Positions 3,100 through 58,505 of a stretch of DNA of 64,000 nucleotides are shown piece after piece. Source of the stretch: Gnetum montanum (Eukaryota > Plantae > Gnetophyta); the NCBI GenBank assembly GCA_015680685.1, contig MNCI01000474.1, positions 1 to 64,000 of the forward strand. Direction: 5' to 3'. Positions within the stretch are counted from its first letter, which is position 1. Each line of letters begins with the position of its first letter. The notes under the pieces were generated by a model that was not told where the DNA came from, did not search any database, and was given only the letters and a program-made list of their open reading frames with translations. A program made the translations under genes and the position numbers.

Positions 3100-3100
3100 N

Positions 3101-4009
3101 CTACGAGATGGCGTAGTTGATCCTGCTACGAGTAACCATGGCCTAGACAATGATGTAACAGTGCATAGTATCAACCCATGGTAGCATCCAAGGGTTCATG
3201 AGTTTCCTGCTTCCATCCTTGGATTTGCTTTCATAGGTTGGACACCTAGGAGTATGTTTGATACTTATTGTTAAACAGTTCTAGCATCGTACTCCACCTT
3301 CGAATGGATTCCAGTTCTAAGGACCGGTACCAGCTTTCTGCTTCTTTTACTAGTGTCCTTGGGAGCAACTTTAATTTTTTCCACTCGTTCTCAATTTTCT
3401 GCAAGGCACATGCATTGTGAAATGCTTGTAAGTGGTTCTGAGGATCAACGTTGTATCCCCCCTCAAATCGTGAGATGTTATTCATGTCTAATCTCTTGAT
3501 CCTGCTATCTTTTTGGTGCCTTTTAGGAATTCTTATAGCCTCTGTGATGTCTAACATGCTTCAACTTGCAAGTAGGGGTTCTTCATGGTCATTTCTTTCA
3601 TAGCGTCTGTGATGTCTACGTGGTTTCCTGCTTTCCCTTCTTCCATGTTGTGATTCTCTAGAATGCCCTCGTCCTCATTCTAAACTCTCTTGTCGAGGTC
3701 TCTCATTTTGTTTACCCTTATCCTCACGGTTAGGTTCCTTATGACTACATCATGATGTTGAAAGAGAGGGCGAACGTGACGATGAAGGTGAAGAAGAAGG
3801 AGAACCATCACCATGGCGATGTTTCCTACCTTCTCTTCGATGGTCCTGACCCCAATCATGATGACGATCAGAATGCCTGTCCTTATCATGTGTTTGTGTT
3901 CCCTCGTTCCACACTTGGTGTTCGTGGGGATCAGAACCAGGGTTGTGAATTGTGGAGTGAAGGTTCTGATACACCACCTCCTCACTATCGTTAGGAGGGG
4001 GAACATCAT
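3101..4009 (-). pseudogene. gag: Degenerate Athila-type gag (E1)
   Basis: ORF 3246-3557 RFEGGYNVDPQNHLQAFHNAC...LKLLPRTLVKEAESWYRSL...IRRWSTMLELF (retrotransposon Gag motif); His/Ser-rich N-terminal extension; stops. Confidence 0.85.
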
Positions 4010-4655
4010 TTTGTGGAAAACTTATTAAAGTAGGTTCACCACCCTCAATTTTTGCTTAAGATAGGTGGAGTGTTATGGGGTCCTTTGCCCTTCAAAGATG
4101 TATAGTAACTCTCCTATCGCAAGTCCCATTGACGTTGCGCTTCTGTGGGATGGTAGTCCNCTAGTAACTCTCCTATCACAAGTCCCATTGACGTTGCGCT
4201 TCTGTGGGATGGTAGTCCCTTGTGTCGTAATCACATGCAACATACTCTACATACAATTGTGATATGCCTATTCATGCAAGAGCACGAAGGAGCATGTTGG
4301 GGACTGCTCGGTCTGGACGCAACACTATGTTACCCTCCAAGTCTCTCCAACATAGTTGTTCATCTTGATGGAGAATAAAAGTAAAGTCATGTACATATTA
4401 ATCATGATGAATATATACCACACGGAATTATTGAGGAACTAGCAATTCTTGGTTACGTGTGTTGTGCCGCTGACTATCTCTAGTGTGAGTCCTAGGCAGT
4501 GAAGTGCTTTTGTGCAAAGAAGAAGACATTTTAGTCTTGTTCGGTGTGTTTTTTACCATTATCTTATTTTACTCTTGATCAACCCTAAGGGTTTGTTCTA
4601 GCTCCCAATGATATGAATGATTTCCTATGTTCTACGTAGCGCACTAACAACTAAG

Positions 4656-4673
4656 TCCCCGGCAACGGTGCCA
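4656..4673 (-). promoter_or_regulatory. Primer binding site, tRNA-Asp
   Basis: TGGCACCGTTGCCGGGGA, complementary (1 mismatch) to the plant tRNA-Asp(GUC) 3' end; typical of Athila. Confidence 0.9.
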
Positions 4674-4674
4674 A

Positions 4675-5459
4675 TGATGAGTGGCGAGGTACCCCTACAC
4701 TCAACCATACGAATACGAGTGTCTCATGCGTGATTCGGTCGAACTCCAAGGACTAAGTGCTTACTCACCTTAATGGAACACTTAAGGTTAACTAATCATT
4801 ATCCTCCCAAACTTACTTGTATTGTCACGGTTGTATGGTTAAGTAAGTCTGAGGTATGTGATTTTTATATCTTTTGTCTTTTTAACGCTTATGCTAGTAG
4901 GGAAAGGTGAAGAGAACTAAATAACTAATTTTCATTAACTATTCACTAACTAAGCTTTAATTATATCCTTTCCCACTTGCTGCACACACCCTGACCCAGT
5001 GCAATACTACTGGGATTACCAAACGCTACTCATTACTAGGTTACCATGTGTTACACATGTGCTCAAAGTGGTCGTACTGAATGCACTTACCTAGGAGAGT
5101 CAAGGGTTGAGAGAGATTAATTATTTAGGAAAGCATTTAAACATGTAACAATAATTAAATCCTATTTAGCTTAGTCCATATGCTGCAAGTTTTATCAGAA
5201 AGTTCATCTTTATTTCCGTACACAAATGTGTGCTCAGGTACAATTTACTCGAATAAAGATCTGTTCACTTTGAGACACCTACTACGAGCACATGGAAATT
5301 ATTCTAACTCTGGAATGGTAAAACTACTATAGTTTGGCTAAGGGACTAACTCTAGATGTGTGAACAAGGGAAAGCCACCTCTTATTTATAGACATGGTGA
5401 TGGGCTGTGATATCGCGTACTCGATATTGCAGGGGACGACGTGATATTGCGGCTCATCA
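4675..5459 (-). repeat. 5' LTR of E1 (785 bp)
   Basis: TG..CA termini; GATATC palindrome cluster then TATAAATA near 5389; U5 end GTATGGTTGAGTGTAGGGGTACCTCGCCACTCATCA shared with E2/E3 LTRs. Confidence 0.9.
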
Positions 5460-8400
5460 TATGTTGTCTAATAATTAAACTAATAGTGGAACCTATTGGT
5501 AAAGGTGTTATAACTCTAAAATAATTGCAATATAAGGATAACCAATATAGAGTCCATTCAAAACTTTATAACATAGAATTTCCCACCAAAATAAAACCCA
5601 TAACTTTGTGTTTTCAAATCTAGAGACTTACCACTAGGCTAACTTATTATTTTCACATGATAATAAGACTATGTCATCTATCCTTGCTTCTCCAATTGAT
5701 AATCAATCCTTATTATGAGAATAAAATTATCTTCATCTATATCTATAATATCCTTCCATCCTGTTGCATTATACAATATTTCCTTAATAAGGTTTAGGGT
5801 TTATAGTTTAGGATCTTTTTGCATTTAGGATTATGGGTTACAGGTTATGGATTTAGGTTTTAGGTTTTAGGGTTTATGGTTTAAGCTTTTTAGGATTTAG
5901 TATTTAGGTCTTTTAGGGATTAGGGTGTAGGGCTTATGATTTAGAGTTTAGGGAAGCTAATTTTTATGATTTTCTTATTTTCAAAACTTTGGTGGAATCC
6001 ATTTCATAGCCTAGATATACCTAGGACACCTAGATAATTTTCTGTTAATTGAATTACCAATGATGATGTAGGAATCAAATGCATAGGTTGGAATTTTATT
6101 CTATGTTGTCTAATTATTAAAGAAATTACTACACCTACAAGGGTGTTGGAACCCAATATATATAGTCCAATCAAAACTTTATAACCTAGCATTTGGCACC
6201 ACAATCTAATCCATTACTTTGAGTTTTCAAATCTAAAGTCTTACAACAAGGCTAACACCTCATTGTATGCATATGATAGTAATACTAAGTCATCTATCCA
6301 TGCATCTCCAAATGATAATATGTTCTTATTATGAGAATAAAATTATCTTCATCAATGCCTTTAATATCCTACATCCTACTACATTATAACACATTTTCTC
6401 AATAGGTTTTAAGTTCTACATTTTAGCATTTAGGATTTTTAGAGGTTAGGCATTAGGGATTAGGGATTAGGATTTAGGTTTTAGATTTTAGTATTTAGGG
6501 TTCTTGGGGTTTAGGGATTTTTAGGATATATGATTTTTTAAGGTTTAGGATCTTTAGGATTTGGGTTAGGATATAGGGTTTTAGGGTTCAAGATTTTAGG
6601 AATTAGGATTTTATAGGATATTGGGTTTTCTAGGATTTAAGGTTGAGGGTTTAAGGATTTTTTAGGGCACATAATTTATGGTTTTTAGTGTTTATGATTT
6701 AGATTTAGGATTTAGTGTTCTAGGATTTAGGGATTACGATTCTCAATTTTTATGGTTTATAGCTTTTGATTTCTAAGGATTATGGCTTAGAATTTTTAGG
6801 ATTTAGTGTTTAGGGATTAGGATTTTAATATTTAGGCTTTTTAAGGTTTATTGTATAGGATTTTAGGATTTTTAGAGTTTGCAATTTTTAGGGTTTAGGG
6901 TTTGGGATTTTTAGTGTTTAGTTTTAGGTTATTTATGTTTTAGGATCTAGGGTTTTTAGGACTTTAGGGTTTATGGCTTAGAATTATTAGGGTCTAGTGT
7001 TTTTAGGATTTCTAGAATTGAGGTTGTTAGGTTTATGATTTTTTAGGGTTTAGTGTTTTTAAGGATTAGTATTTAGGTTTTAGGTATCATGGTTTAAGGA
7101 TTTTATGGTTTAACATCTAAGGTTTTAAGACCTTACGTGTTAGGTTTTAGGGATTCTTAAGGTTTAGGTTTTACTATTTTAGGATTTAGAGTTTATGATT
7201 TATGTTTTAGGATTTATTATTTTTTATGATTCAAGGCTTTTTGAGTTTAGGGTTTAGGAATTTTAAGGAAAACAAATTTTTATGATTTCATAATTTTTAA
7301 ATTATTTATGAAACCCATCTCTCAACCTAGATAAACCTAGGAGGCATAGATAACTTTATGTTAATTACATTACCAATGATAATGTAGGAATCAAATGCAC
7401 TGGTTGAAAATTTGTTATATGTTGTCCCATTATTGAACAAAGAACTACACTTACTGGGAGGCATGTTGGAACACTAGAATAATTATAATATATATACATA
7501 CAATATATATAGTTTAATTAGAACTTTATAACTTAGCATTACCCACCAAAATTGCATCCATAACTTTGAGTTTTCAAATATAGAGACTTGCTAATAGGCT
7601 AATGTCTCATTTTTTGTACATGATAGTAAGACCATGTCATCCATCCTTGCATCTCTAATTGATAATGGCTCCTTATTATGACAATAAAATCATCTTCATC
7701 TATGCCCTCAATATCCTTCCATCCTATTACATTATCTAACATTTTCTCAAATGGGTTTCAGTTTTAGGATATAGGATTATTAGAACTAATGATTTAGAGT
7801 TTTTAGGGTATAGGATTTTTCAAGGTTTAAGGTTTATGATTTAATATTTATTGATTAGGGATTAGGTTTTAGGGTTTAAGGTTTTTAAGATCTACAATAT
7901 ATGATTTTCATGGTTTAGTATTTATGGTTTTAATAGTTTAAAGTTTAGATTTTAGGGTTTAAGGTTTAGGATTTTTAAGGGTTTAGGGGTCTTTATAGTT
8001 TAGGCTTTAATGTTTTAAGTGTTTAAGATTTATGATTTTATACGATTTATGATTTTCAAGGATTATGGTTTATGCTTTTTAGTGTTTAGAATTTTTAAAA
8101 ATGTAATTTCTATTATTTGCTAATTTGCAAAACAATTTAATTTTATGTTAATTGCATTACGAATGATGATGTAGAAATCAAGTGTAGAGTTTGAAATTTT
8201 GTTCTATGTTGTCTAATTATTGAAAAAATAATTGTACCTATGGGTGGGGGTATTAGAAGCTTAAAATAATTGTAGTATAAGTACACCATACATATATAGT
8301 CTAATCAAAACTTTATAACGTAGCATTGCCTAGCAAAATCGAATTCATGACTTTGAGTTTTCAAATCTAGAGTCTTACCTCTAGGCTAATACCTATTATT

Positions 8401-9690
8401 TGCACATGATAGTAAGACCACGTTATCTATCCTTACCTCTCCAATTGATAATAGGTTCTTATTATGAGAATAAAATTATCTTCATCTATGCCTTTAATAT
8501 CCTTCCATCCTATTGCATTACATAACATTTTCTTAATAGGTTTTAGGGTCTAATGTGTAGGAGTTTTAGGATTTAGGGTTTATTATTTTAGGATTTAGAG
8601 TTTAGGTTCTAGGGTTTAGGATTTTAGGATTTATAAATTTTTAGGGTTTAGGATTTAGGATTTTAGGATTTATGGATTTTTAGGGTTATGGTTTAGGATT
8701 TTATGATTTATATTTTAGGGTTTTTTAGGATCTAGGTTTTACTAATTTTTTAGGGTTTCGAATTTTTGGGTTTAGTATTTATCATTTTTATGGTCTAAGT
8801 ATTTTAGGATTTAGGGTTTTTTAGTGTTTAGAAAAGCTAATTTTTATGATTTTGTAATTTTCAAAATATTGGTGGAACCCATCTGTTGGCCTAGATAAAC
8901 ATAGAAGGCCTAGATAATTTTATGTTAATTGCATTACTAATGATGATGTAATCAAATAATTACACCTACCAATTTTATGTTAGAACCCTAAAATAATTGT
9001 AATATAAGGACACCCAATATATATAGTCTAATTCAAACTTAATAACTTAGCATTGTCCACCAAAATCATGTCCATTACTTTGAGTTTTCAATTCTAAATT
9101 CTTACAATTAGGCAAACACTTCATTGTTTACATATTACATACAGTAAGACCATGTTATCTATATGTATATCTCCAATTGATAATATGTTCTTATTATAAA
9201 AATAAAATTATCATCATTTATGCCTTCAATATCCTTCTATCCTACTATACTATACAACATTTCATTAATAGGATTTAGGTTTTAGAATGTTTAAGGTTTA
9301 GGCTTGGTAGATTAGGGATTAGGGATTAGGTTTTAAGGTTTAGTGTTTAGGGGTATTAGGATTAAGAGCCTCTTGGATTTTAGGATTTATGGTGTAGGGG
9401 TTTTTAGGATTTAGGGTTTAGGGTTTTTTAGGGTTAAATAGTTTTTAAAGTTTAAGGTTTTATAGGCTTTAGAATTTTTAGGAGTTAGGTTTTAGGATTT
9501 TCTAGGGTTTATGATTTGTGATTTTTTAACATTTAGAATTAGGAATTTTTAGGGTTTAAACTTTTTTAGGTTATAGGATTTAGAATTTCAAATGTAGGAT
9601 TTAGGATTTTTAATTTTAGTGTTTAAGGTTATTAGGATTTATGATTTAGGAATTTAGGGTTTAGGAAATCTAATTTTTATGATTTTCAAT
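5460..9690. repeat. Tandem array: five copies (first truncated) of a ~450-bp conserved block plus a stub, alternating with degenerate telomere-like (TTTAGGG)n tracts
   Basis: Blocks at about 5460-5790 (cut by E1), 5950-6405, 7268-7755, 8100-8540, 8832-9270, stub 9665-9690; intervening TTTAGGG/TTTAGGA/TTTATGG variant tracts of ~160-860 bp. Confidence 0.9.
5950..6375 (-). pseudogene. Two-exon coding cassette of unknown protein (representative array unit)
   Basis: Exon A 6375-6245 (TAG acceptor, GTAAG donor), 110-nt intron, exon B from 6134 (matches ORF 6004-6204 frame); equivalent splice sites recur in the other units. Confidence 0.55.
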
Positions 9691-10424
9691 GATGATTTTA
9701 TGTCAATTTTGAGGACCAAGCACTTCGAAGAGTGGTTGAATAAGTTTCCCAAAATGAAAATTAATTAGCTACAAAAACCACATCCAAATTTCATGTTGTT
9801 CCCTACCCAAACTCAATATATTACAAGTAGAGATAATGCCATCGAATGTCCTCGCACTACCTTTAAGACTTGGAAGATGTTAACTATTTACATTCTCGAT
9901 CTTTTTCAATAACACTGCCATTAACGTGATCCAAGTGTGCACCCTTCAAAAAATTCAATATCCAATTTTGCTTAACAACAATGCTACCATGTCATGGGTT
10001 TTTTACTGAACAAGTATTTGGAAAGTAATTCCATCTATGTTGCTTTGCACATGCTCACTGGTGTACCCACTTCTTTATTGTCTTAAGTTTTAATAGCAGC
10101 TATCAGTCTGGAATGCACCTTCTAGGGTGATTGCAAGTTGCAACCTCTGACAGTTTCAAAGGCAATATCAGCCATAGCAAAGGCACAGGTCAGGTTTTTT
10201 TGTCTAAACATTGTGAAAGATGTTTACATTCTTTCTTTGCTTAGTCAAGACATTCTGCAAAGGCTTTACTTTATTTCATTGTCTCCTCACCTTCTTTGAC
10301 TGGATTAGAAGGACTCTCATCTTGAACATTTGAACCAGGGAAGATAGGCTCCTCATGTAAGTAATAGAACCTTCTTTTTCTAGGTTTCTATTGAGCTATC
10401 TTTGAACTGGATGCTACGTACCTG

Positions 10425-11375
10425 TTGGTTGGAGCACCTTCTCCTAATGCTCGATCCCTTGCAGACCAAGCGATTCTACACCATAGGGATATTAATGATC
10501 TGCAGCAGAGCAATGATGTGGTGCAAGGCGAACTTGAATCTCATGTGGGCAAGATTGAGGCTTTAAATGTATGCTTGTTGTCTCTTGAGGATGAGATCGT
10601 GTTGCTAAAGAAGATCGTTGCAAGATCTTCGCATTGGAGTGGAAAACCCAAAAACTCCAAACTGAAAGTGCCGAAGCCAAAACAATTTGGAGGAAGCCGA
10701 AACGCGAAGGAGTTGGAAAACTTTCTATGGGACATGGAGCAATACTTTTGTGCTGCTCATGTTCCTGGGGACCAGAGGGTCATGATAACAAGCATGTATT
10801 TTATGGAAGATGCAAAGCTCTGGTGGAGGACGCGGCTAGAGAATGATGCAAGTGTCGGTCGCCCTCAAATCACAACGTGGAAGGCGATGAGAAAGGAGTT
10901 GAAGGATCAGTTCCTTCCCCTAAATGCTGCATGGGTAGCACGGGAGTCTCTCAGAAATCTGAGACACACCACTACCTTGCGCGAATACATCAAGGAATTC
11001 AATTATTTGATACTAGACATAAAGAATATGTCTGACGAGGATAGGCTATTTAACTTTCTTTCAGGGTTGGCAGAGCTAAGAAGGCAGAACATGAAAGATC
11101 TGCCAACAGCCATAGCTGCTGCAGATGGGTTGGTTGATTACAAACGGGATAATTCTAAATCCAATTTAGAGCAAAAGAAGTCCCATGAAGAGGGCAAGAA
11201 TGGGGGAAAACAGCATGGAGGCCCGAAAGACAAGAAGGAGGGGATGCCCTCCAAACCCAAGGGAGATGGAGCCTCCCAAGGGAAGAAATTCTCATTTGGG
11301 TGCTTCATTTGTAATGGACCACATCGGGCTCGCGACTGTCTTTCAAGGGAAAAGCTTGTGATCCTCAGACTTTAG
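10425..11375 (+). CDS. gag: Gag (retrotransposon gag domain plus CCHC zinc knuckle), Galadriel-like
   Basis: KVPKPKQFGGSRNAKELENFLWDMEQYF, DAKLWWR, CFICNGPHRARDC. Confidence 0.9.
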   Translation: MVGAPSPNARSLADQAILHHRDINDLQQSNDVVQGELESHVGKIEALNVCLLSLEDEIVLLKKIVARSSHWSGKPKNSKLKVPKPKQFGGSRNAKELENFLWDMEQYFCAAHVPGDQRVMITSMYFMEDAKLWWRTRLENDASVGRPQITTWKAMRKELKDQFLPLNAAWVARESLRNLRHTTTLREYIKEFNYLILDIKNMSDEDRLFNFLSGLAELRRQNMKDLPTAIAAADGLVDYKRDNSKSNLEQKKSHEEGKNGGKQHGGPKDKKEGMPSKPKGDGASQGKKFSFGCFICNGPHRARDCLSREKLVILRL

Positions 11376-11469
11376 GAGGAGTCTGAGGGAGATTGCAGTA
11401 ACACGAGGTGTAATCCGTTACAGTTGCTAAATACCCTTTCTTCCCAAAAGTTTGCTCCACCCAACGAGC

Positions 11470-11800
11470 TAATGTTCGTTGAGGTCGTTCTCAAGGGATA
11501 GAAGGTAACCGCAATGCTAGATATGGGAGTGATGAACAATTTCGCATCCCAGCGGTTGGTGAAGAACCTTGGCTTGCCATCTCCATGAGCCAGAGCAAGG
11601 TCAAGGCCGTGAACTCAAGGGCACAACCAGTTCATGGCATGATTTCTTCTCTTCTCAAAGTTGGTCTCTGGGAGGACATTTGTAATTTTGTTGTCATCTA
11701 TTTAGATGACTTTGAGTTGATTTTGGGCATGGAATTCTTTGTAAGGGTGAAAGCTCTAGTGGCACCACACTTGGGAGGATGTTGATTGCTGATGAAAGGT
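11470..11800 (+). pseudogene. Degenerate aspartic protease
   Basis: MFVEVVLKG*KVTAMLDMG...VKAVNS...LDDFELILGMEFF with stop and frameshift. Confidence 0.8.
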
Positions 11801-12315
11801 AACCTAATTTTATTCCTATCAAATGTAAAGAGCTAAAACCAATGTTTAAATTAGCAACCCAAAGGAACTTGGGGGTAAAACAGGGTGAAGTCACTATGTT
11901 GGGTGCCTTGGTAGAGATCAAGGAGAACTTGATAGTGAACGTTCCCAATTGTGTGGGCAATCTGCAAATGGGATCTACATATGCGATGCCAAGGTCTTAC
12001 CTTTAGGGATGAAGGTAGACCATCGGACAGGGCTAGAACCAAGGGCAAGGTTGCCTACAAGTGTTTCATATCTAGATAAAGGTGGAAATAGGGGTAAGAG
12101 TGCCCGTGAGTGTTTTGTACTGTACGTTCCCCATGGAGTGGGATGAACTGCAAAGGAAGTTGCGAGTGTTGTTGGAGGCTTGCTACCTTCAACTTTTGGA
12201 AGTCCCGTATGGAGAAGTGGTGCTCTCCAGAGAAGCAGGCAAGGTGCCAGAGTACCTTGCAGAGCTCGACATCGATTGGGTTCATCGACTTGGTTAGGAG
12301 AACCAGGTAACGAAT

Positions 12316-12520
12316 TTGCTGAGTCGAACGAAATTCCAAAGAACAACTGAGAGGATTCTTAGCCATCGGATGGAGGGTGCGAGTCGAAGGAATCAATGCA
12401 CTGACTACTTGTTCCAGTGTGAGGATGGTAGTAAAATGGATGCCACATGGGAGCGTGGCGAGGAGTTGATCCAACTCCTATTCAGAGGGACTTCCGATGA
12501 GAACATCGAACTACTCATTC
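12316..12520 (+). pseudogene. Integrase C-terminal chromodomain remnant
   Basis: ERILSHR...DYLFQ...DATWERGEEL, followed by PPT GGTGGGGGTGGG. Confidence 0.75.
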
Positions 12521-12534
12521 GGTGGGGGTGGGTT

Positions 12535-13068
12535 TGTCACAACATCTTGAGTTGTCACAATCGTAGACTCATGTGCAAGCGTACGTGAGTTACAATTAAT
12601 CCACAGCTGGGGTGTGGAAAGACATCTGGTACCGCTAGGCAAAGCCAAGTGTGATGCATGTGAGGGGGCTATAGCTGGAGTCATCCAGATGTAGCACATG
12701 CACACCTCTTATCATTAAAAGAGGGTAGGTGCGACGGATGCAATGGGCCTACTACTGCATTCATCCAGATGTAGCGCATGCGCACCTCTTATCATTAAAG
12801 GAAGGCAAGTGGGACGAATGCGCAAAGGGACTGCTGCTGGGTTCGCCCATGCCTTTAAATACAAAAGGCTCTGCTCACATTGGGGCATCCTCTGTACATG
12901 TTGTAACGTATTCCTTTATGAGTAAAGTTTGGAGGTTTTCTTGTAAGCGTGTTTCCTTTGAGCTTGTGCATCGTTGTTGCGTTCGTTGCGAGTAGCTGGC
13001 TAGGTGTCGGGGCACTTAGCGTTATTACCTGGTGAGAAAAATTATCCGCTGTGATTCACCCGGTGAAA
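12535..13068 (+). repeat. Chromovirus LTR copy 1
   Basis: Starts TGTCAC after PPT; TTTAAATA near 12853; followed by TGATATCAAAGC (13071-13082), a degenerate TGGTATCAGAGC Met PBS. Confidence 0.75.
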
Positions 13069-13251
13069 ATTGATATCAAAGCAAGGAGGACCTTGTTGAG
13101 TCGAAGGAGTTGACTCACAAACTACCTGTTCCAAGCAGAGGATGATAGTGAAATGGATGCCACATGGGAGCGTGGTGAGGAGTTGATTGAACTCCTACTC
13201 AAAGGGACTTCTGACAAGGATGTCAGACTACTCATCCGGTGGTGGTGGGTT

Positions 13252-13845
13252 TGTCATGACCCTTTGAGCTTTCAATGCGAAGGCTTGTGCACAGGCATGC
13301 ACGAGCTATGGTTGGTTCACACACGAGGTGTGGAAAATCATATGTTCTCTACAGATGACTTGCGAAATGAGCATGTAGCAAATGCGCTAGGTAGCTAGAG
13401 TTACCTAAACAGATGGAGCCAGAGGCGACGCATGTAAAGAGGCTGCAGCTAGACTCATCCAAATGCAGTGCATGCACATCTGTTACCGTTAGGTGCGGCG
13501 CATGCAAGGGACTACATCTAGAGATGCCCAAGCGTATCACATGCACACTTGCTATGGCTAGTTTGGGCCAAGCATATATTAGAACTACATGGGCCCTGAT
13601 CCTATGATGCTAGTAGGTATGTAGGCAGCCAAGATCGGATGTCTTAGTGCAGTGTCGATCTAGTGCGAGGCCAGACCACCCCCTCCTATGCAAGCTACAG
13701 GAGGGGGCACCAGTTACGAGAGCGTACTGGTAAGGCCGGGAATGCCTGTGCCTAAAGACAAGATGTGCGTCATTGTGAGTAGCTGGCTAGGTGTCGACGC
13801 ACTTAGCGTTATCACCTAGTTAGAAAAAAATAGCCGCTGCGATTC
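13252..13845 (+). repeat. Chromovirus LTR copy 2 (diverged U3, shared U5)
   Basis: Starts TGTCATG after a second PPT; shares GAGTAGCTGGCTAGGTGTCG...CCGCTG(T/C)GATTC with copy 1. Confidence 0.7.
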
Positions 13846-13870
13846 TCTACTCTTTTTGTTTTGTTTAGAA

Positions 13871-16800
13871 ATGGAGAGTTTTGTGTTAAAATTGGCTACG
13901 AAGCTTGCAAAGTTTGCACTTACATCAGCAACCAACAAAATTGGCCAAGAAGCTGGGCTTATCCTTGGGTTTGGGGATAGTTTTCCTTGGTTGCAAATGA
14001 GACTGGATGATCTGCACTTATATCTCATGGTTGCAGATTGAAATGGGGGAAGGCAAGAGTCCAACTTTTTGGTCAAAAAGCTGATAAGAGACCTTGAATC
14101 TGCAACACTGGAGGCTCAAGATGTCATTGATTTATGTGTCGTGAAAGGATTAGACCCAATTGCCTCCTCCTCCCATCCATGTCCTTGGGCTTCTTGTTTT
14201 AACAATTTGCTAGTTGCATGTTTTAGTACAGTGCAGTCTATAGATTCTATACCCGCTACTTATGAAACTGCTATGCAGATCAAAGAAATGAATACAATAT
14301 TAGATAAGATTGAGGAAAGAGCACGATCAATTACAAATTGTCTATAAGATACCGATGTTATTTGATGAGCATAGCAGAGACCTCATGTTTAAACATCTTC
14401 TTCCTCATTCTCAAGTGGAAGGTTGATGGTAATGTAGAGGTAGAGGCTACAATTGATACTACTCTGAAGCACTGCGATGTCCTTCCTTTATCTATTATCA
14501 TAGTTGCTAGATTATTGCATCAAAACCCTGATGAATGGGCTAAGTCCATGCAGTACCTTCCATCATCTTCTTCCACTGCTTCATAGCAAAATGAGATGAC
14601 CATAGCACCTATGTTGCTAGAAACGCAACGGATTCATAAAGTTTCACATTTTTCGTTGCGGAAATGGAATCCCAATCCCATTTCAAAATGCCATTGCCCA
14701 TGAACAGTAACCGTCACTTGCTGGGTGAAATGTTTCCAAGCCAACTGAAACGTTTTTAACAAGTTTCATTTACATTGATTTTATTTTTTAATTTTATGGT
14801 TTCAACTACTGCATCTGTCACAAATTAAATGCACATCTGCAGCACAGAATTAAATGCACGTCTGTCACAAATTAAATGCAGATTTGTGAATTGAATGTGA
14901 AATGGTAAACATGGAGGGCAAAAAATTTAGGGCCACTTCTATGATCAGGATGGCAATAAGCAACATATTCAAGTGAAGCATTTGGGGCCTGTGCTGTGAA
15001 CGCTGCTAATTCTGCTATTGCTGCGGCTACATCGCTGTGCTATGAACACTACTAATCCTGCTATTGCTGTTGCTTTTGCATTGCTCTCCACAGCCATTGC
15101 TGTGTCGCTCTCTACTAATCCTGCTATTGTTGCTGCTTTTGCATTGCTCTCCACAGCCATTGTTGTGTCGTTCTCTCCACAACATAAATCGTTCGTCAAC
15201 TTTGTGTGGTAAGTCACTGCTTCTGCAACAAGCACTCCTCCTCCCTCTTCTTAATGGGCTAAACTGCAGATTCAGAGACCATTTTTGTACATTATCTCGT
15301 CTTTCTTTACTGAAATTCTTTTCTTTGAGCGAGTTTCTTATTATAGTAAAGTTCAATCACTGCAATTCATCTGCAATTCATTTTCTGACAGAATATCAGG
15401 GTCTCATTCTTAAAGTCCATCTCTTCAAAGTTAATATAATAAGCTCATATTTGGCCTTTCTCTATTCCTAGTTCAAGGGGGCAGCAAATTCTTCTATTTG
15501 TAGATCTAATCTCAGATCTTGCTTTATGCTTGTTTATCTAAATGAAAGAGCAACAGCAGAGTCCTGCACTGTTTTCAGCTCATCTTTGAGGATTTTTTTT
15601 ATTATTAATATGTTATTATTGGTCTGAGACTCTCTGAGTGCTATTTAGAATGAAAGATTTGATTATTAATATGTTATTATTGGTCGGAGACTCTCTGAGT
15701 GGTATTTAGAATGAAAGATTTAGAATGTTGTTCACTTGTTCTGCCACTACCTTTTTGTCACTGGTATTTAGAATGAAAGATTTAGAATGTTGTTCACTTG
15801 TTATGCCACTACCTTTTTGTCACTGTAAGTTCTAGCATATTGATTACCTATGTCTAAATATTTATTTCTTAAATAAATTCTTTTACAACTTCTATCTAAG
15901 TTTACTGATCAACTTGTTTCTTTTTTCGCAACCTAATTTTTTGCGGTTTCCATTGTGTTGCCGTTACCGTCACGTTGCCCAGTTTCCGTTTCTGGTAACT
16001 ATGCATAGCACTAATGCTCAGTTTCAATGATTTAGATTACAGTATAAAATCTTGTTTTGCTATACTAGGATTATTGGTAGAGGATGAGAAGATAGATGCA
16101 GAAAATCTGATAGGCATGTGGTTGGCCAAAGGTCAAATCAGAAGTCATGAAGAAGGGATCCACATGCTCAAGCACCTATGCAATAGATGCTTGCTTGAAA
16201 TGAAGAAAACATATGCAGCTAGTCTAGAAACTGTAATAACTAGCATGATTTGGCGGTGAAATTATGCACAAAGTATGGAGGGATATCTGAAGTTTCACAT
16301 TAAAGGATGTGTTGCAGTAGGAGCTCAAGAATATCACGAATCAGCTTGTTCAAAGTTGCGCTTGGATCAAAATGAGAATCTTGGTTGGATCAAAATGAGA
16401 ATCTTTCAGAAGTTCCATCGAAAAGTCTGGCACCTGCAGTTGCTGGATATCAAGGGTACTCATATTGCAAGTTTGCCCAAATGCATCGGCAATTTCCTTC
16501 TTCTCAAGTATTTAGATATTAGGTACTCTTCCATTAAAAGATTTCAATAGTGTCTTACAAATCTCAAGATGCTGGAATATCTTTACACCAGCATTTGGCA
16601 TGATGTGTCCAATCATGATGTGCCCCAATGGATTGGAGACCTGGAACAACTGGCATTCTTTGCGGCTGAGTTAGTATGGTGGACAAAAATAGATAGAATA
16701 TCAAAATACTTAAAATGTTTGAACGTGGTGCAAATAGACGTAGGGAGCCATGATGATGATGATAACAATAATAATGAAGGTGATAGAAGAAGGCAGGAGA

Positions 16801-17270
16801 AAGGTCCAAGAAGAAGAAGGTTGTGGATAGGGGATTCTCAGTTGGAGTTTTTGGATCATACCTCCTCCCAACATTGTACACTTGACCCTGGCCATCATGA
16901 CCGAGCACTAACTTTACTGAATGAGTGGCAATGCTGTCTGCAAAGACTGCAATATTTAACAATGACGGGGATTAAATTTCCAGATATGCCTTCTTCAAAA
17001 CGGTGTTGATTCAAAGGTCATCTCTGATCTTCCTGACTCTGATGGTAATCAATGACGATACATGCGAGTCCCTTTCTGAAGAATATGGAAGGCCTGGGGC
17101 ATTTCCAAAGCTTCACGCACTTATTATTTTAAACTTTGGTGAGTTAAAGAAGATGCCAAAGATAGATTGGAGGCATGCCATGCTTAAGTGAATTGGATTT
17201 ACTGAATTGTCCAGAGTTAAGTGAATTAATGATGAAGCAGAGTTGGAGGCGACTTACAATTCCGTAAAAG
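13871..17270 (+). pseudogene. CC-NB-ARC-LRR (NLR) resistance pseudogene
   Basis: Rx-type CC with EDVID-like AQDVID; RNBS-C-like EHSRDLMFK; GLPL-like CDVLPL; RNBS-D LSFNDL..IKSCF; HDLA near 16244; LRRs (LQLLDIKGTHIASLPKCIGNFLLLKYLDIRYS). Stops, frameshifts, no P-loop, hAT insertion. Confidence 0.9.
14609..16003. mobile_element. Non-autonomous hAT DNA transposon (1395 bp)
   Basis: 8-bp TSD CATAGCAC (14601-14608, 16004-16011); imperfect TIRs CTATGTTGCTAGAAACG / CGTTTCTGGTAACTATG; removal restores NLR frame NEMTIALMLSFNDL. Confidence 0.9.
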
Positions 17271-20124
17271 TAAGTGAGTAAAGTACATTCTTGCCAAGAA
17301 GACTAAAGCCACTGTTTCATGAAATGGTTTTTATTCCATCATATCTTCAAATAGTTTAAAGTTCCTGGTGGTGTTGCGAATCTTAATCTTACACCAGTAA
17401 AATTATACAAAACGTTAATATTGGTATTGTATGTTTTATTATAAATTTATGTATTGTTTTGTTCAGAATAATGATAAAATAGTCTTCTCAAATCTTTCTC
17501 CGTTGATGGACTCTTATTCATTACCTGATACATGTTATCCTTAATGTGACATCATTTCCAGTGCATATGTATAAATTTGTTACTCTGGAGTCTCTTTTTA
17601 TGTTTTATTTTAGTGATTTTTCATATTGATTCACATCATATCAATGCTATACAAGTCCAATATTGTTGTTTCAAGTATTCGAATGTAACATCCTCTGCTT
17701 GTAAGTCGTATAATCATGGTGTTTTTTTTTTTTTACCTATTTCAGGAATTAGGTAGAATTTCTGTTACCGGATATACAATCACAATTCAAGAGCTATCTG
17801 AAGACAGAAATGATAGAATGTTATTCAAGTGTTTTATTTATCAGATAATTGCATCCTTGATGCCTTCAAAATTAAAAAATACCTCCAAAATTGTATCAGA
17901 GTGAAAACATAACTATACAAACAAAAGGCAAGAGATAAATATCATGGACAAACTTGATAATCCAGATGTATCAATTATCTAATGCCAATGAAATGAAAAT
18001 TCTGTAAACCAATGCTGCAGCACTGCAGTAGTTTGCATTTAATATGGCTTGGATTTTTTTCTGTATTACTCCTCTAAACCATGCACTAATTCATAACAAA
18101 TTCAAAAAGAAAACTGCAATAGATGGGATGGGCAAAATAGTTTTTGCTCTGCAGAACTGAATTCACGTGCTTTATTGTGAAATTCTGATGTCACAATTCC
18201 CTTATCAAAAAATTTTTTAATCACCATTAAACCAATTTTATGTTTGTTTAACATTCCTTCAAATCCTCAATGTGCTAATAGATTATTACTTGAATGATCT
18301 TTCATTCATTACATTGGTGTTGTTCAACATTGAGAGAAGCTTACATACATTATTTTTCTTTTCTATTACAAGTCAAAACACAACTCAAAGTTCTTGCTTT
18401 GCTTGCATTTTAAGTGAACAGAATCCATGATATCGAATGATCATACTGAACTTGTTAGATCAGTGTTGTGTCATTATGAATTACAGGTTGTAAGAAATAA
18501 ACACGAAATAAAAATATTCACATTTTATCTTTCAAATCTGCAATTTTAATTCTTGAACAGCTAACACAACTCCTATTGCAAAGATCCTTTTATGCAATTG
18601 ATTTTTTTGTTATTGCACTTTGAATTTGATTTCATGCAATTGATTTGTGTGGATTATCTTAGGTATTTCAAAAGAATGGGAAGGTTGAACAATAGGGGTC
18701 CTTTGTACGAGCAAGCTTTGGTATTGAATCATCAGATTAAGCTTGCTATTTTTTTAAACCATCAAAATTTTCCAGCACATCTACACAGCTGCATGATTAT
18801 TTACAATGCAACATTTTTTTAATGTGTATGTTATTGGTCTCTGTCATTTTTCAATTGAGAGTACTTTGTCCTCAAAATGATAAAGAAATACTTTATATGA
18901 CTCTAGAATTCTTGGAGTTAGACGAGAAGATCATGACAATGAAGAGGTAACAAAATAAAATGTTATGTTAAATGAAAATGCCATGAAGAGTTTCATTTTT
19001 AAAATAAGATACTGAAGATTATATTTATTTCTAAGGAAATAGAGAACAAGCTTCACTTAACTATAGAGTTTAGTTTGTTCAATGTTACAAAAAACATTTT
19101 TAAAAGGAGAGTTTTTAATTTTGAGATAAAGTTAATGAGTTTTTATAAACTTGATTGTTTATCATTGATATCTTCCCAACCTAGAGTGTTGTTTTTTTAG
19201 GGTTATATTCCTTTCATGCCTATTCCTTAAAGGCAATCCAATATTGCCACCTAACAAGAAAGCAACGCTAAATCCTTTCTTTTCTACTCAGCACTCATCA
19301 CTTGCAATTGTTAGCTTTGCAATTCTATGCTAGCATAAACTTTAAGTTACTATCATAAATACCTTAGGTCAAACCCTAAAGGTTTCTTTAAGAGACATGT
19401 CTATACAATGTGCCCTTTCATTAATAATACAATAATTACAACTCCTAGTTATGAAATGTTACCATTTAGGGTTAGGCACATGGTATTAGTGTTCCCTTAA
19501 TTAATTACTATGCAACAAGGTCTCATTACTTAATTTAAATTACTATGATATTTGTTCCTATTTTGCTAAGAGAAAGCTAGCATGAGGAGTTCAAATCAAC
19601 CATGACATATCAAAATGGTCAACACCAAAAATTTTGGTCTAAAATTATTATCATTAGGTAGACTTGTTCTACCGATTTGGTTGTGGTATTTTGCCATAAT
19701 GTTACATGTGACATGTTCATATGTGGTATTTGTAAGCTACTTTAAAGAAAAGGGCTTGTTCACGATATGTCTTGTGCAAACATGTGGTATTGTTTATCAA
19801 TGTGTCTATCCTTAAACCTTCTAGGTTCATGTTTTGAGGTCTCAAGGATTTAGAATGAATAAGTAATTACAAAGTTGAACTACAAAAAATGCACAATGTG
19901 CCATATTTGCAAGTCAACCATGGATCATGGCCAAGTTGCATTAGTGAACATGAGTTACAATCAACTCACAATATGGTTGTATCAAATTTTTCAAATCACA
20001 TTAAGATGACAACAAGTCACAATGTAACTAAGATTTTTAATTAGGGATTTGTAGGTCATGGTGTCCTCGCATTGAGAGTGCCCTCAAGATTTATTTTTAT
20101 TAATGTAATTTATATAGACTAAAG

Positions 20125-21361: not shown

Positions 21362-22289
21362 CTATTTTGATATCGGTGTATGTCGGTGAGATGCGAGTGT
21401 GGTTGCAGCCATGGATGTGTCCGTCATGTTATTCATGACCGACCGTCCTGCTAACTTGCTACAAGCGCCTGTCGTTGCCCCGGGGTCACGTGAAACGCCC
21501 ATTTTCTGCCGCCTGCTAGCAGAAGAGAGAAGACTGCTGGAACATGCTGGAGGCGTAAACCATCCATTACTCGGACCTAATAATTTATGCATTGGTGTTG
21601 ACATCTTCAATCTACTATTAAGCCAGTTCTTTGTTTCCCCAGTAGCCTTCGGCCAAGTGGTACCTTGAACAATAAGCTTGCATTAAAATAGTTGTCTAAA
21701 ATGGTTTAACCCAATGTTTTAAAAAAATGTGAGGCATCTTGTCACACAAAATAATGCATTTTTCTTACTAAAAAACTTTTATTTATGTTCAGGTCATTAG
21801 TGTTTCATGATACATGCTTACCCTTCAGATTTTCATCTCCACTTTCACTTGCCACCTAGTCTCTAACCTTCCTATTTCGATCCAAGAAAATTTTGTGCGT
21901 TTTCTATACTTGAATGTAATATGATTCCGGTTCTGGCCAATCTATTACAAGTTGATAAAATGGAATCTGGAATCAATCCTTTAAAGTGTCCTTTACTCGT
22001 AGCTGCACTCTGACCTTAGACTAACACCCTAAGAATTATCGTTTATAAAAGAAAAGCAGTCCTGGATGGCCTATGGTGCTTTCAGCAACCAAACAACCAT
22101 TGAAAAAGCATAGCCTTCTATAGGGATCCATAAAAATCCAAAACATTCCATAGTCCCAGCAATTATAGGGCCACTATTGGAATTATTGTCCAAAACAATT
22201 ACATGATCCATTCTATCATCGAAGGTATCCTTCGTTTCTACGGTTTTTTCCCCCTCTTCATATCCCGGTTCAAAAATAGATTTCCTCAC
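21362..22289 (-). pseudogene. Last three exons of an unidentified host gene
   Basis: Exons 22289-22098, 22014-21822, 21663-21362 join in phase via GT-AG introns: ...MECFGFLWIPIEGYAFSM|VRVQLRVKDTLKD*FQIPFYQLVIDWPEPESYY...SESGDENLK|GTTWPKATGETKNWL...; three internal stops. Confidence 0.6.
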
Positions 22290-22640
22290 CTTGAAATTTA
22301 AAATATAAACAATGTCTTAAAAAATCATATAACTGTATCTCACAACAATTGCTACTTCAGGAAACCTTCCGAGAAAAAAAATACAAGGATATTGACTTAA
22401 GATCTGGACATGACCTCCGGTATCTATCTACCCGCCCAGATGTAAAAAGAAAAACATAACCGGGCACACCACTGTCTCTATTTGCAACATGAAATTTCTT
22501 CGAATATTTTCTTCAACCCAACGTAGATTTCACATAGATACACAGAATACACTTACTTAAAGAGCAAAGTGAACATAATTTAGTGATACGTTCAAACTTC
22601 AAAGGCTTCAAAAATTTCGAAGCTCAAATGCTTTGATTGA

Positions 22641-23461
22641 TTACTTATCAGCCTTCACATTTGCTTCCGATTCCTGGGATTCTTCAATAATCTCCTCAGA
22701 TGGTGGTATGTACTTATGTACTCATTAATTCCATTTATCATTGCGGACAACTTTTTTTTAGCCTCCCCATCCAGGAAATCCACTTCTTGCATTGCGTGTC
22801 TTTTCTCAGGAACATTTTGGGAACACATCACTGCAACATGCACTATTCGTTTCAGTTCTTCCCCAAATTACTTACCCTCAAGCTTTGGATCAGCCAGTTG
22901 GTCGTAATTCTTTTCCAAAACCAAAGGAAGTGCCCAATCTACTATACTGCGAGTTATTCTATTGCTGACTTTCTCAATTGGTTTTGGCCACTCACAATTT
23001 CTAGCAACAGGATCCCTAAACTGTACACATCACAACTTTCAAAAGCTTTTCCCCACATTCAGGAGCAAAGTAACCCAACGTTCCCTTAACTCTTGTGGTT
23101 ACATGAGTAGCACCTTCAGGTATAAGTTTTGCAAATCCAAAATCAAAGACCAACGCCTTGAAGTTGGAATCCACTAGTATGTTGCTGGCTTTGATGTCTC
23201 TGTGAATTATGAGGAGTCGCCTGATGGTGGAGATACCTGTCTGAATAGACATGATAGTGTATGAAAAGCATTCCAACAGTATAAGTCTATTATAAAAAAA
23301 TTACATTACTGATAAATCCCCTTACCTTTTAAAAAAAAGTCTTATCAGGAAAAGAATTAGAAGCATCTCACGGAACAATTTGACACAAATGGCAATTTTG
23401 AGGAAAAGATAATTATAAAACTTACGTCCGCAGCGCCAACTGCAATGTGCATTCGCCTCGG
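22641..23461 (-). pseudogene. Receptor-like cytoplasmic kinase 3' fragment (RLCK-XV / At3g15890 PTI1-like type)
   Basis: Exon stub RRMHIAVGAAD (23461-23426), intron, last exon from 23236: [72 protein letters not shown]; frameshifts; N-lobe missing. Confidence 0.9.
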
Positions 23462-24719
23462 CTCTGCTCTAAGGTGTCGGTGAAGATGGGACTGTTTGAC
23501 ATCAACATCACCTATGAATGGGCCTTCTCACCCTTCCATCAGGGTACCATGACACCAAACTCCCTGTACAGAATAATCTTAATGACTGCCACTACCTACA
23601 CCAGTGTTATTCCCGTTGTCACTGTAATGACCGCCTTCGATGATATAGCCAGGATGCCGCATAATTTAGACTCCGACATTTGCTGGTAATTTTTAACAAA
23701 TGTAGCTTGCTTTTTTTTTTCATCTGTTTATGTTTCAAACCCTAGTCATCCCCATACCGTCACTCGTCCTTCCCCTCCTTCCTGAGCAGTGCATGCAACC
23801 CATCGCTCTGCCATGATGTCACCTTCTTGTTCTTACCGTGCCATTCTGCTTGGCCTAGCCTCCAGCTACTGCCATTGCCCTCTGCACACCACACTGCACC
23901 ACGAAAATACTTCACCGTTCGACAATCCTCTTCCTCATGTGAGGAAACCCTCACTGTAGCCCTACTGCCATTGTTCTCCTTTTGACACTGTGCCTTGTGT
24001 GTAGGTGCCCTGCCACTGCTTGGCACTGCCACTTCACTGCCTCGTTTCCTATCACCCACCGGCCACCATCAATTGCATGCCTTATTCACTCTCTTCCACC
24101 ACGTTGGCTAGCCTTGGACCGTGCAGATCTACAAGTGCCATACTGCTACATAGCTCGTATTGGCACCACACAATCTGATGAACTCGTCGCCTCCCTCTTC
24201 CTTTCTTCATGTGGGCTGTGCATCTAGGCCATGCAGGCCCTAAAAAACACTGCACGATGTAAATCCCAGGTGTTTGTCGCCTCGTGTTTGCTAGTGAACC
24301 ATCATTTTGTGCTATGCCATGTTGTGCTCACCATCATTATGAGACTCGGGCTTTGCGAGTGACCCATTTTCATCAAAAGACTCGGTGAGTTACTCCGTAA
24401 ATTTGCAAAATAATGAAAATATATATTTCATCTTTAATATTTCTACTGTGCTTCTTTAAGTTCAATTAAAATTATTAGTCAGGTTTCTCTTTCACTGGAT
24501 ATTATTTCCAAGCTAGCCATGATTATTAGTCATGTTTCTCTTTCACTGGATATTATTTCCAAGCTAGCCATGATTATAAGCATGGTGCCCTAGGTAATAG
24601 CTTTGCCAAATCGTGTTTCTTTTGGTGCCCTAGGTAATAGCTTTGCCAAATCGTGTTTCTTTTGGGTGTTGTGCATTAGTTTGCCTCTTGGCCCAAATTT
24701 TTGCATCAACACCCCTCTC

Positions 24720-25026: not shown

Positions 25027-25725
25027 TGATGAGACGCGATATCGCGTACGCGATATTGCGTTGTCCCCTGCGATATCACGTACGTGATATCGCGGTCCGT
25101 AGCCAAATCTATAAATAAGAGGCAGCACTCCCCTAATTTATCATCCTAGGCTAGAAGTAGCGAAGCTCTGGCAGTTTAGTCACTCCAGAGATAGAATATC
25201 TTCCATGTGCCCGCAGTAGGAGTCCCCAAGTGAACGGTTCTTTATTCGAGCAGCTTTGTACCTGAATGCAAGTTGTGTACAGTAATAAAAACAAGCTTTG
25301 TGGATAAACCTTGCAGTGCATGGAATAGGTTTATTACATGTTATTTCTTACCTGTCATTTATTACATGCATTAGCGCAGCATGAGTACGATTTGGTTACG
25401 AGCATTGACGAATGTGTACGGCTAACCAAGAAATCGGCTACTCATCACGATTAGATTCTCTCACCCTTATCNNNNNNNNNNNNNNNNNNNNNNNNNNNNN
25501 NNNNTTAGCGTAGAAGACATAAAACCAGAAAAGACCAAAAAAATCATATACCTTGGACTTACTTAACCATACACCGTGACAACAAGTAAGTCTGGGAAGA
25601 CAATGAATGATTAACCCCAAGTGTTCCATGGGGCGTTTAGGCATTTAGTCCACGGAGTTCAACTGGATCGCGCGTGCTATGCTCGTTTTGTATGGTTGAG
25701 TGTAGGGGTACCTCACCACTCATCA
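25027..25725 (+). repeat. E2 5' LTR (contains N gap)
   Basis: TGATGAG...CTCATCA; TATAAATA at 25110; closely similar to 30965-31721. Confidence 0.95.
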
Positions 25726-25726
25726 T

Positions 25727-25744
25727 TGGCGCCACTGCCGGGGA
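25727..25744 (+). promoter_or_regulatory. PBS, tRNA-Asp
   Basis: TGGCGCCACTGCCGGGGA. Confidence 0.85.
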
Positions 25745-26053
25745 CTAAGTGTTTGTGCACCAAATAGAACATAAGGAATATCACTCACATTGTTGTGAGC
25801 CTTAAACGAATCTTTGGGTTAATCAAATAAAAATTTATATAACAGTGAAATAGCACACCGATTAAAAATGCCTTCTTTTCATAAGAGCAACTCACCGCCT
25901 AAGGACCACACACGAGACAGTCGGCAAGAGAAAACGCATAACCAAAATCAGCCAAGTCCTAAACAATATAAGATGATATATACTCATCCCACTGAGTATA
26001 TTCCTAATTTTACTTTTGTTCTCCATTAGGACGAATAGCTGCGATGGAGAGAT

Positions 26054-41894: not shown

Positions 41895-42077
41895 ATTCTA
41901 ACAAAGTTTTGTAATTCTATGTCTATGTTCCAATTTTGATTTTGCTCAATCCCACACTGCGGCATGAATAAATTTCTAGTCAATTAATAATCCCATACCT
42001 ATCCACCATGTAATCAATTGTGCTTGTTCCTCACTTTCTTTAACTCGAGGATGAGTTGTTATTTAGTCGTGGGGGTA

Positions 42078-58370: not shown

Positions 58371-58505
58371 ACATGAAAATTTTATGCAAAAAATAGCACA
58401 TATACAATGCATAAGTTAATGCAGAATCAATTTCTTTTCCAAAATTTTCTTCTTTATTCAAAACTTTTATCTTTTGGAAAATGTTTGCAAAAATTTTACA
58501 GAAAT

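What the first reader, a model, noticed from the sequence alone, without database searches (positions are those of the whole stretch)
5460..9690. Tandem array of a two-exon coding cassette separated by telomere-like repeats
Seen: the satellite block is a spliced minus-strand unit with a ~132-nt exon A, a ~110-nt intron and a terminal exon B. By-eye consensus: GWKDIEGIDEDDFIVIIRSHYQLEMQGWMTWSYYHVQTMRCxPx|GVIIxSIIxQHRTKFQPMHLIPTSSLVMQLTENYLGLLGLSRLRDGFHQYFENYKIIKISF. Five copies plus a stub are each flanked by degenerate TTTAGGG tracts of variable length, G-rich strand on + and the gene 5' end facing the would-be telomere. Knowledge: this polarity, intron retention and interspersion with telomeric repeats characterise telomere-associated endonuclease-less Penelope-like elements; yeast Y' elements are also interspersed with telomeric repeats. 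Inference: a fossil telomere-associated element array or a rolling-circle/unequal-crossover amplified transposon end. Identical breakpoints in all copies favour tandem amplification.
Basis: partly seen in the sequence, partly recalled or inferred. Interest (0 to 1): 0.8.

Follow-up and report, generated by a model that had tools for sequence, protein, structure and literature searches.

The report
Decayed SINE-cored repeat with telomere-like spacers
Five head-to-tail copies of a decayed unit sit between telomere-like spacers in a plant genome; each unit has a tRNA-like core that is likely a short jumping element (SINE), so this is likely a dead, non-coding repeat multiplied by DNA copying rather than a spliced gene or a Penelope element.

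Summary
The array is real: five minus-strand units of about 470 nt (70-81% identical) plus a stub, separated by 166-861 nt degenerate TTTAGGG/TTTAGGA tracts. The coding reading is not supported. Substitutions ignore codon position, every copy has stops, three searches found no true protein relative, and no spliced read was listed. The supposed intron, with the end of 'exon A', is a tRNA-derived head. A 17-mer from it matched 60 viral loci, all 60 in the D-arm of tRNA genes, and a B-box-like motif lies in tRNA register in all five copies. In public reads this ~100-nt core is roughly 10-50 times deeper than its flanks and has mixed 5' neighbours, as a high-copy SINE would; the flanks are themselves a mid-copy dispersed repeat. 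Best reading: a SINE entered a repeat beside a telomere-like microsatellite, the module was multiplied in one burst, decayed neutrally, and was cut at 5459 by an LTR retroelement. Penelope features (RT, hammerhead, variable 5' truncation, terminal position) are absent. A telomere-repeat-targeted retroposon stays possible (about 10%). Modest interest.

The parts
5460..5797 (-). Unit U1, cut inside flank B by the LTR insertion (flank A 5797-5651; tRNA-like head 5650-5550, A-box from 5641; flank B 5514-5460)
5798..5952 (+). Telomere-like tract T1 (degenerate TTTAGGG/TTTAGGA, G-rich on +)
   Evidence: (counted over 5790-5955): 4 exact, 14 within one mismatch, 1.3 expected
5953..6412 (-). Unit U2 (head 6266-6163, A-box from 6254; 27-nt deletion in the linker removes the putative acceptor)
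6413..7268 (+). Tract T2, the longest (~860 nt)
   Evidence: 12 exact, 57 within one mismatch, 5.4 expected
7269..7760 (-). Unit U3, the complete reference copy (flank A 7760-7614; head 7613-7510, A-box from 7601; TA-rich linker 7509-7473; flank B 7472-7269)
7510..7613 (-). tRNA-derived SINE-like head in U3: A-box, B-box-like motif in tRNA register, very high read depth
7761..8099 (+). Tract T3
   Evidence: 4 exact, 16 within one mismatch, 1.9 expected
8100..8546 (-). Unit U4 (head 8399-8297, A-box from 8388; 43-nt deletion in flank B)
8547..8832 (+). Tract T4
   Evidence: 7 exact, 24 within one mismatch, 1.9 expected
8833..9278 (-). Unit U5 (head 9127-9024, A-box from 9115; 49-nt deletion in flank B)
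9279..9659 (+). Tract T5
   Evidence: 6 exact, 26 within one mismatch, 2.8 expected
9660..9709 (-). Stub: 3' end of flank B only
   Evidence: nhmmer E 0.003
4677..5459 (-). 5' LTR (TG...CA, followed by a primer-binding site) of a gypsy-type element inserted into U1; a later insertion, not part of the unit
   Evidence: gag remnant further left, PF03732 E 5e-4

Best explanation
This is a decayed compound tandem repeat, likely non-coding, whose unit is flank A, a tRNA-like core that is likely a SINE, flank B and a telomere-like microsatellite, and it was likely multiplied by DNA-level copying. Shown: the unit structure, the tRNA-like A-box and B-box spacing, the much higher read depth of the core than of its flanks, position-blind substitution, and the later LTR insertion. 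Inferred order of events: (1) a ~100-140 nt SINE of a family with very many genomic copies inserted into a repeat next to a TTTAGGG-like tract; (2) the module was multiplied head to tail in one burst, by unequal exchange or rolling-circle copying, probably helped by the tracts as recombination substrate; (3) the module was spread to tens or hundreds of other loci, probably as cargo of a non-autonomous DNA transposon whose ends are not visible here; (4) the tracts changed length by slippage and all copies decayed without selection; (5) an LTR retroelement inserted into U1. It has no present function that I can detect.
For: tRNA head: the U1 17-mer matched 60 viral loci and 60 of 60 lie at positions 6-22 of ARAGORN tRNA genes (59 His, 1 Asn; 20 distinct sequences). 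The T-arm 12-mer of those tRNAs, which was not selected on, matches 10, 9, 10, 9 and 7 of 12 at offset 42 (tRNA offset 41) in U1-U5; shuffle p = 0.001, 0.005, 0.0007, 0.005, 0.15; it is the best site in 4 of 5 copies. Copy-number contrast: summed contig depth in run X1 is 56,000-90,000 at 7510-7549, 660-2,070 over most of flank A and 33-870 over flank B, against 6.5 for the contig of this locus; depth is 42,240 at the U2 A-box in X5. Reads diverge with mixed flanks (agreement 0.5, 59 reads) just past 6266, the 5' edge of the head. Non-coding: differences per codon position are 34/29/34 in A and 51/38/54 in B; pN/pS in the proposed frame (0.67, 0.82) is no lower than in other frames; no base periodicity, p = 0.41; no true homologue in Pfam, the 5.8-billion search or 1.84 billion representatives. 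One burst: shared derived states are spread over 9 of 10 possible pairs (1-4 each), a star pattern. Other loci: at least three gap-free contigs carry A plus head at 80-82% identity and cannot be U1, U2, U4 or U5 of this locus, which have indels there; multi-copy X5 contigs join tract to A (8520>8640) and tract to B (7974>8902).
Against: Rfam and ARAGORN call no tRNA in the copies, and the acceptor stem does not pair. No clear target-site duplication or A-tail flanks the head; the longest shared words are 5-6 nt. The copies are not independent, nor are the viral tRNAs. Contig depth is not copy number and depends on how far U3 has drifted locally. The joints that look tandem could all come from this locus, so tandem arrangement elsewhere is not shown. 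No carrier transposon end or transposase was found. Flanks A and B are jointly more open than most shuffles (86 of 1500, P = 0.057), and the periodicity test caught only 8 of 14 coding controls. The B count includes some non-homologous U1 columns.
Confidence: 0.6

Rival explanations
1. Flanks A and B are remnants of two exons of an unknown gene (host or transposon accessory gene) with the SINE inside the intron; the fragment was dead before or at amplification. This differs from the best reading only in the ancestry of A and B.
For: AG-like acceptors stand before A in 5 of 5 copies and before B in 3 of 5. An AG|GT site at the 5' edge of the head would join A to B in frame (alignment; one chance in three). 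Joint openness P = 0.057. A decayed minus-strand reading frame lies just upstream, 10387-9891.
Against: No homologue. No codon bias or periodicity. Majority stops in both parts. None of the 10 joints has RNA support, and the 15 X11 reads on flank A run through the putative acceptor unspliced. RNA variants on the upstream frame show no synonymous excess in any frame.
Confidence: 0.2
2. The unit is a non-autonomous retroposon that was inserted again and again into telomere-like repeats by a site-specific LINE, like MoTeR2 arrays; the array is an internalised fossil of a chromosome end.
For: Head-to-tail units with fixed ends between tracts of variable length match the MoTeR layout (PMC7367193, passages). 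The C-rich strand follows the 3' end of the sense strand. The star phylogeny also fits independent insertions. Tract-unit junctions exist at other loci.
Against: Flank A lies ~150 nt upstream of the internal Pol III promoter and TTTT runs occur 50-80 nt into the head, so a Pol III transcript would not cover the unit. No 5'-truncated copies, no poly(A). Tracts never exceed 2 perfect units. 54 kb of interstitial DNA lies on the distal side. No partner RT in the flanks searched.
Confidence: 0.1
3. The array is a decayed tandem cluster of true tRNA genes with their flanks.
For: A-box and B-box spacing is that of a tRNA. Tandem tRNA clusters occur in plants (recalled, no call).
Against: No tRNA call by ARAGORN or Rfam. 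No acceptor stem. The head is thousands of times deeper than single-copy DNA and read variants keep it non-tRNA-like at its 3' end.
Confidence: 0.06
4. The array is a fossil of an endonuclease-less Penelope-like element.
For: Polarity fits: 5' end towards the G-rich direction, C-rich repeats after the 3' end, as described for Terminons (PMC6431247, PMC12477314, passages).
Against: No RT. No hammerhead core on either strand and no Rfam hit. 5' ends are identical, not variably truncated. The 'retained intron' is a tRNA-like head.
Confidence: 0.03

Closest known systems
Plant tRNA-derived SINEs (PMC5585668, passages seen)
   Same: tRNA head with A and B boxes, ~100-140 nt (grass families are 102-399 bp), T-rich or TA-rich 3' end, very high copy number, read-through in unrelated transcripts.
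   Different: No TSD or clean tail could be shown in these old copies; the family could not be named because no plant repeat library was available.
SINE-derived satellites and tandem-like SINE arrays (squamate sSats, PMC10702118, parts 1 and 4 of 5 and passages; bivalve and potato arrays, PMC11481361, passages)
   Same: Short head-to-tail array that contains SINE sequence and is explained by DNA-level duplication.
   Different: sSat units are 70-290 nt and shorter than the SINE; here the unit is 610-1350 nt, mostly non-SINE flank plus a variable telomere-like spacer, and is not homogenised (about 20% divergence).
Tandem arrays carried by non-autonomous Helentrons (Cg_HINE, PMC7492417, abstract and outline only)
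   Same: Short satellite-like arrays dispersed to many loci by a carrier element.
   Different: No Helitron, Helentron or TIR end was found here; the carrier is inferred.
MoTeR1/MoTeR2 telomeric arrays of Magnaporthe (PMC7367193, passages)
   Same: Head-to-tail units separated by telomere tracts of variable length; non-coding member exists.
   Different: MoTeRs sit at chromosome ends in near-perfect tracts and have a known RT partner; no tRNA head is described in the passages seen.
Endonuclease-less Penelope-like elements and Terminons (PMC6431247, PMC12477314, passages; the 2007 primary paper was not read)
   Same: Orientation relative to the G-rich strand; interspersion with telomere-like repeats.
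   Different: No RT, no hammerhead, no variable 5' truncation, interstitial position.

Membership tests
tRNA-derived SINE (the core) | 5' head related to tRNA, with A-box | tested here: met
   60 of 60 viral matches of the U1 17-mer lie in tRNA D-arms; the five copies differ from it by 0-3 of 15 bases
tRNA-derived SINE (the core) | B-box at tRNA distance from the A-box | tested here: met
   7-10 of 12 matches at offset 42 in all five copies, p 0.0007-0.005 in four and 0.15 in U5
tRNA-derived SINE (the core) | Short, non-coding, many dispersed copies | tested here: met
   ~100-140 nt; depth 42,000-90,000 against ~6.5 for one locus; mixed 5' flanks; depth is only a rough proxy
tRNA-derived SINE (the core) | 3' tail of poly-A, poly-T or short repeats | tested here: inconclusive
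   TTTT and (TA)n follow the head; read laying skipped 7487-7512 as repeat
tRNA-derived SINE (the core) | Target-site duplication | tested here: inconclusive
   Longest shared words 5-6 nt, chance level in AT-rich DNA; solo copies were not available
tRNA-derived SINE (the core) | Pol III transcription and a partner LINE | not testable with these tools
   RNA reads come from other loci in both directions; no genome is held
Penelope-like element, EN-deficient | PLE-type reverse transcriptase | tested here: not met
   No Pfam or profile hit for the units or for the flanks translated
Penelope-like element, EN-deficient | Hammerhead ribozyme before the C-rich repeats | tested here: not met
   No CTGANGA core on either strand of 5400-9800; no Rfam hit at E 10; decay could hide it
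Penelope-like element, EN-deficient | Variable 5' truncation capped by telomere repeats | tested here: not met
   All five 5' edges coincide
Penelope-like element, EN-deficient | Terminal or subterminal position | tested here: not met
   54 kb of ordinary DNA distal to the array, no perfect telomere run in the window; a past terminal position is untestable
Spliced protein-coding cassette | Purifying selection or codon periodicity | tested here: not met
   periodicity test has about 57% power
Spliced protein-coding cassette | Spliced transcripts | tested here: inconclusive
   No RNA-supported joint among those listed in five RNA runs, of which 2-26% was read; RNA cover of A and B is very thin
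DNA-transposon-borne tandem array (CACTA, MULE, Helitron) | TIRs or Helitron ends, TSD, transposase | tested here: inconclusive
   None seen; left end hidden by the LTR insertion, right flank 9710-10390 has no Pfam or homologue hit

The most novel reading that the evidence does not exclude
[quoted passage not shown] A 2025 review says that no telomere-forming retrotransposons of the Drosophila kind have been found in plants (PMC12477314, passage).
Probability: 0.1. Interest if true: 0.7.

Novelty: new variant of a known kind. Interest (0 to 1): 0.27.

Why it matters
As read here it is a small, ordinary piece of repeat evolution: a SINE-containing module turned into a short satellite-like array with telomere-like spacers. 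It adds a plant example to a link that was called thinly documented in 2023 (PMC10702118), and it warns that tRNA D-loop GTAAG and AT-rich flanks can mimic an intron and exons. Nine literature searches listed no plant array of this exact design, but the library lacks most subscription papers and repeat databases, and I read only listings for most hits. It would matter much more if the units proved to be telomere-targeted insertions, because that would imply an unknown site-specific LINE acting on plant telomere repeats.

Tried and rejected
No genome is held for this window, so no genome-wide copy set. Protein searches with the U3 frame or the unit alignment found nothing real: Pfam only UPF0014 at E 0.02-0.08; 0 of 130 candidates (longer proteins only); phage tblastn none; the single hit among 1.84 billion representatives, P0003, is a bacterial-type peptidoglycan-binding repeat protein whose exact repeats sum a weak score, HH probability 3%, so I rejected it. 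No language-model look-alike result was obtained for the unit. The upstream frame 10199-9816 gave 0 of 65 candidates and no Pfam hit. The one metagenome scan gave a chance 21-23 nt match, L001. Pattern scans for other copies of the head found none in prokaryote genomes or viral contigs. Rfam gave no tRNA even on 111-nt stretches; its few hits at E 1-10 are chance. blastn of the head against phages gave only E 0.2-10 noise. No RNA holder listed. The 'goes back' joints were first taken as tandem copies elsewhere, then set aside because this locus can explain them. Earlier scan notes had nothing on this sequence. PMC6410037 and PMC4700185 (passages) added nothing; one paper id was not held. No supplements were read. 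Two scripts stopped part-way; only output printed before the stop is used, and the missing controls were rerun.
Full report
Observation. The window is plant-like: TTTAGGG repeats, gypsy gag remnants, an LRR remnant and a kinase remnant; no genome is held. Between 5460 and 9709 lie five minus-strand units and a stub, found nowhere else in the 64 kb. They are 70-81% identical over the aligned stretches, with head-to-head spacings of 613, 1347, 787 and 727 nt. The spacers hold 4, 12, 4, 7 and 6 exact TTTAGGG against 0.1-0.4 expected, but never more than two perfect units in a row, and TTTAGGA is as common as TTTAGGG. U4 and U5 have 43- and 49-nt deletions in the 3' part, and U2 has a 27-nt deletion in the linker. 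U1 ends at 5460, where the 5' LTR of a gypsy-type element begins; that LTR aligns with another copy at 25027-25745 and is followed by a primer-binding site. The array may once have been longer.

Is it coding? Differences from the majority fall 34/29/34 on codon positions in the first part and 51/38/54 in the second (the latter includes some non-homologous U1 columns). pN/pS in the proposed frame is 0.67 and 0.82, within the range of the other five frames. For the first 40 codons alone the counts are 17/17/24 and pN/pS is 0.59, the lowest of six frames but close to three others (0.68-0.72). Openness of each flank is unremarkable (P 0.29-0.83). Jointly it is borderline: 86 of 1500 shuffles, P = 0.057. 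Base periodicity is absent (p = 0.41), though the test found only 8 of 14 coding controls. No homologue was found in Pfam, among longer proteins of the 5.8-billion set or in phages. The one hit among 1.84 billion representatives is a spurious repeat protein. On U3, 145, 136 and 98 RNA reads were laid from three runs; none was 99% identical, all fit only partly, none of the 10 listed joints had RNA support, and the 15 reads of X11 on flank A cross the putative acceptor unspliced. In one search the 15 joints shown of 1,404 were all from DNA.

What the 'intron' is. Read depth pointed to the middle ~100 nt. In run X1 it reaches 56,000-90,000 at 7510-7549, against 660-2,070 over most of flank A, 33-870 over flank B and 6.5 for the contig of this locus. 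In X5 it is 42,240 at the corresponding A-box of U2. These are summed contig depths and only a rough proxy, but they suggest thousands of copies of the core and tens to hundreds of the flanks. Reads leave the unit with mixed flanks just beyond 6266 (59 reads, agreement 0.5), as at the 5' end of a dispersed element. A 17-mer from U1 had 60 exact matches in viral contigs; 60 of 60 lie at positions 6-22 of ARAGORN-called tRNAs (59 His, 1 Asn; 20 distinct, closely related sequences). These tRNAs are not the donor; they show that the 17-mer is a D-arm, that is an A-box. The T-arm 12-mer of those tRNAs, not used in the selection, matches 10, 9, 10, 9 and 7 of 12 at offset 42 in U1-U5 (41 in the tRNAs), with shuffle p of 0.001, 0.005, 0.0007, 0.005 and 0.15. 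Read variants at 7555 and 7557 move the family closer to the tRNA T-arm than U3 is. Against this, ARAGORN and Rfam call no tRNA, the acceptor stem does not pair, and no TSD is clear. That is usual for an old SINE head (own knowledge) but leaves tail and TSD unproven.

How the array arose. Shared derived states are spread over 9 of the 10 pairs, 1-4 each, with 9-19 private changes per copy in 335 columns: a star, which fits one burst followed by independent decay. All parts of the unit have decayed to a similar degree, so the SINE was in place before amplification. A related organism (run X5) has contigs with 0-3 differences over 338-699 nt of this locus, so the array is old and stable relative to that split. 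The module exists elsewhere: records 3, 5 and 8 carry A plus head without gaps at 80-82% identity, which the indel-bearing copies here cannot give, and multi-copy X5 contigs join tract to A and tract to B. Whether those loci are tandem is not shown, since the tail-to-head joints may be this locus. The carrier is inferred: the right flank 9710-10390 is low-copy, has a decayed minus-strand frame without homologue and shows no synonymous excess against a transcribed paralogue.

Comparison. The core meets three SINE criteria, two are inconclusive (criteria from PMC5585668, passages). The array works like SINE-derived satellites and tandem-like SINE arrays (PMC10702118, parts 1 and 4 of 5 and passages; PMC11481361, passages), but the unit is larger than the SINE and carries a variable telomere-like spacer. 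It may be spread like Helentron-borne arrays (PMC7492417, abstract). It is not a Penelope-like element: no RT, no hammerhead core, fixed 5' ends, and 54 kb of interstitial DNA on the distal side; the features come from PMC6431247 and PMC12477314 (passages). The layout resembles MoTeR arrays (PMC7367193, passages), which is the bold alternative; but flank A lies upstream of the internal promoter, TTTT runs occur within the head, and no truncation or partner RT is seen.

Verdict. Observation partly confirmed; interpretation partly supported (tandem amplification yes, coding cassette and Penelope no). Best explanation 0.6; coding ancestry of the flanks 0.2; telomere-targeted retroposon 0.1; tRNA cluster 0.06; Penelope 0.03. 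New variant of a known kind; interest 0.27.

Noticed in passing
window 9891-10387, minus strand: Decayed reading frame with one frameshift and several stops, low copy, with oligo-dT reads from a paralogue about 88-90% identical. No Pfam hit or homologue. Could belong to the carrier of the array or be an unrelated gene fragment.
   Followed up: partly
window 3100-5459 (minus), 25027-27206 (plus), 31007-31724: Three copies of one gypsy-type LTR family: a 5' LTR plus gag remnant cut at an N at 3100, a second element, and a probable solo LTR. Read depth near 1,000,000 in X5 marks a very high-copy family.
   Followed up: partly
window 10395-14000, plus strand: Ty3/gypsy gag (PF03732 E 4e-15) with broken protease and internally repeated downstream sequence; no LTR pair found in the window.
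   Followed up: partly
window ~16100-17300, plus strand: Broken LRR-type coding remnant (PF23598 E 1e-8), likely an NB-LRR pseudogene.
   Followed up: no
window ~22000-24000, minus strand: Broken or spliced receptor-like kinase remnant (PF00069 E 2e-11).
   Followed up: no
window 36922-43061: LTR retroelement with 635-nt LTRs 92% identical, sharing its LTR 3' end with the family above.
   Followed up: no
window 4103-4220, 15597-15825, 24471-24665: Near-perfect two-copy duplications of 40-62 nt, one across an N at 4160; possibly assembly artefacts at joins.
   Followed up: no
window 58200-58371: 27-nt minisatellite inside a retroelement region.
   Followed up: no
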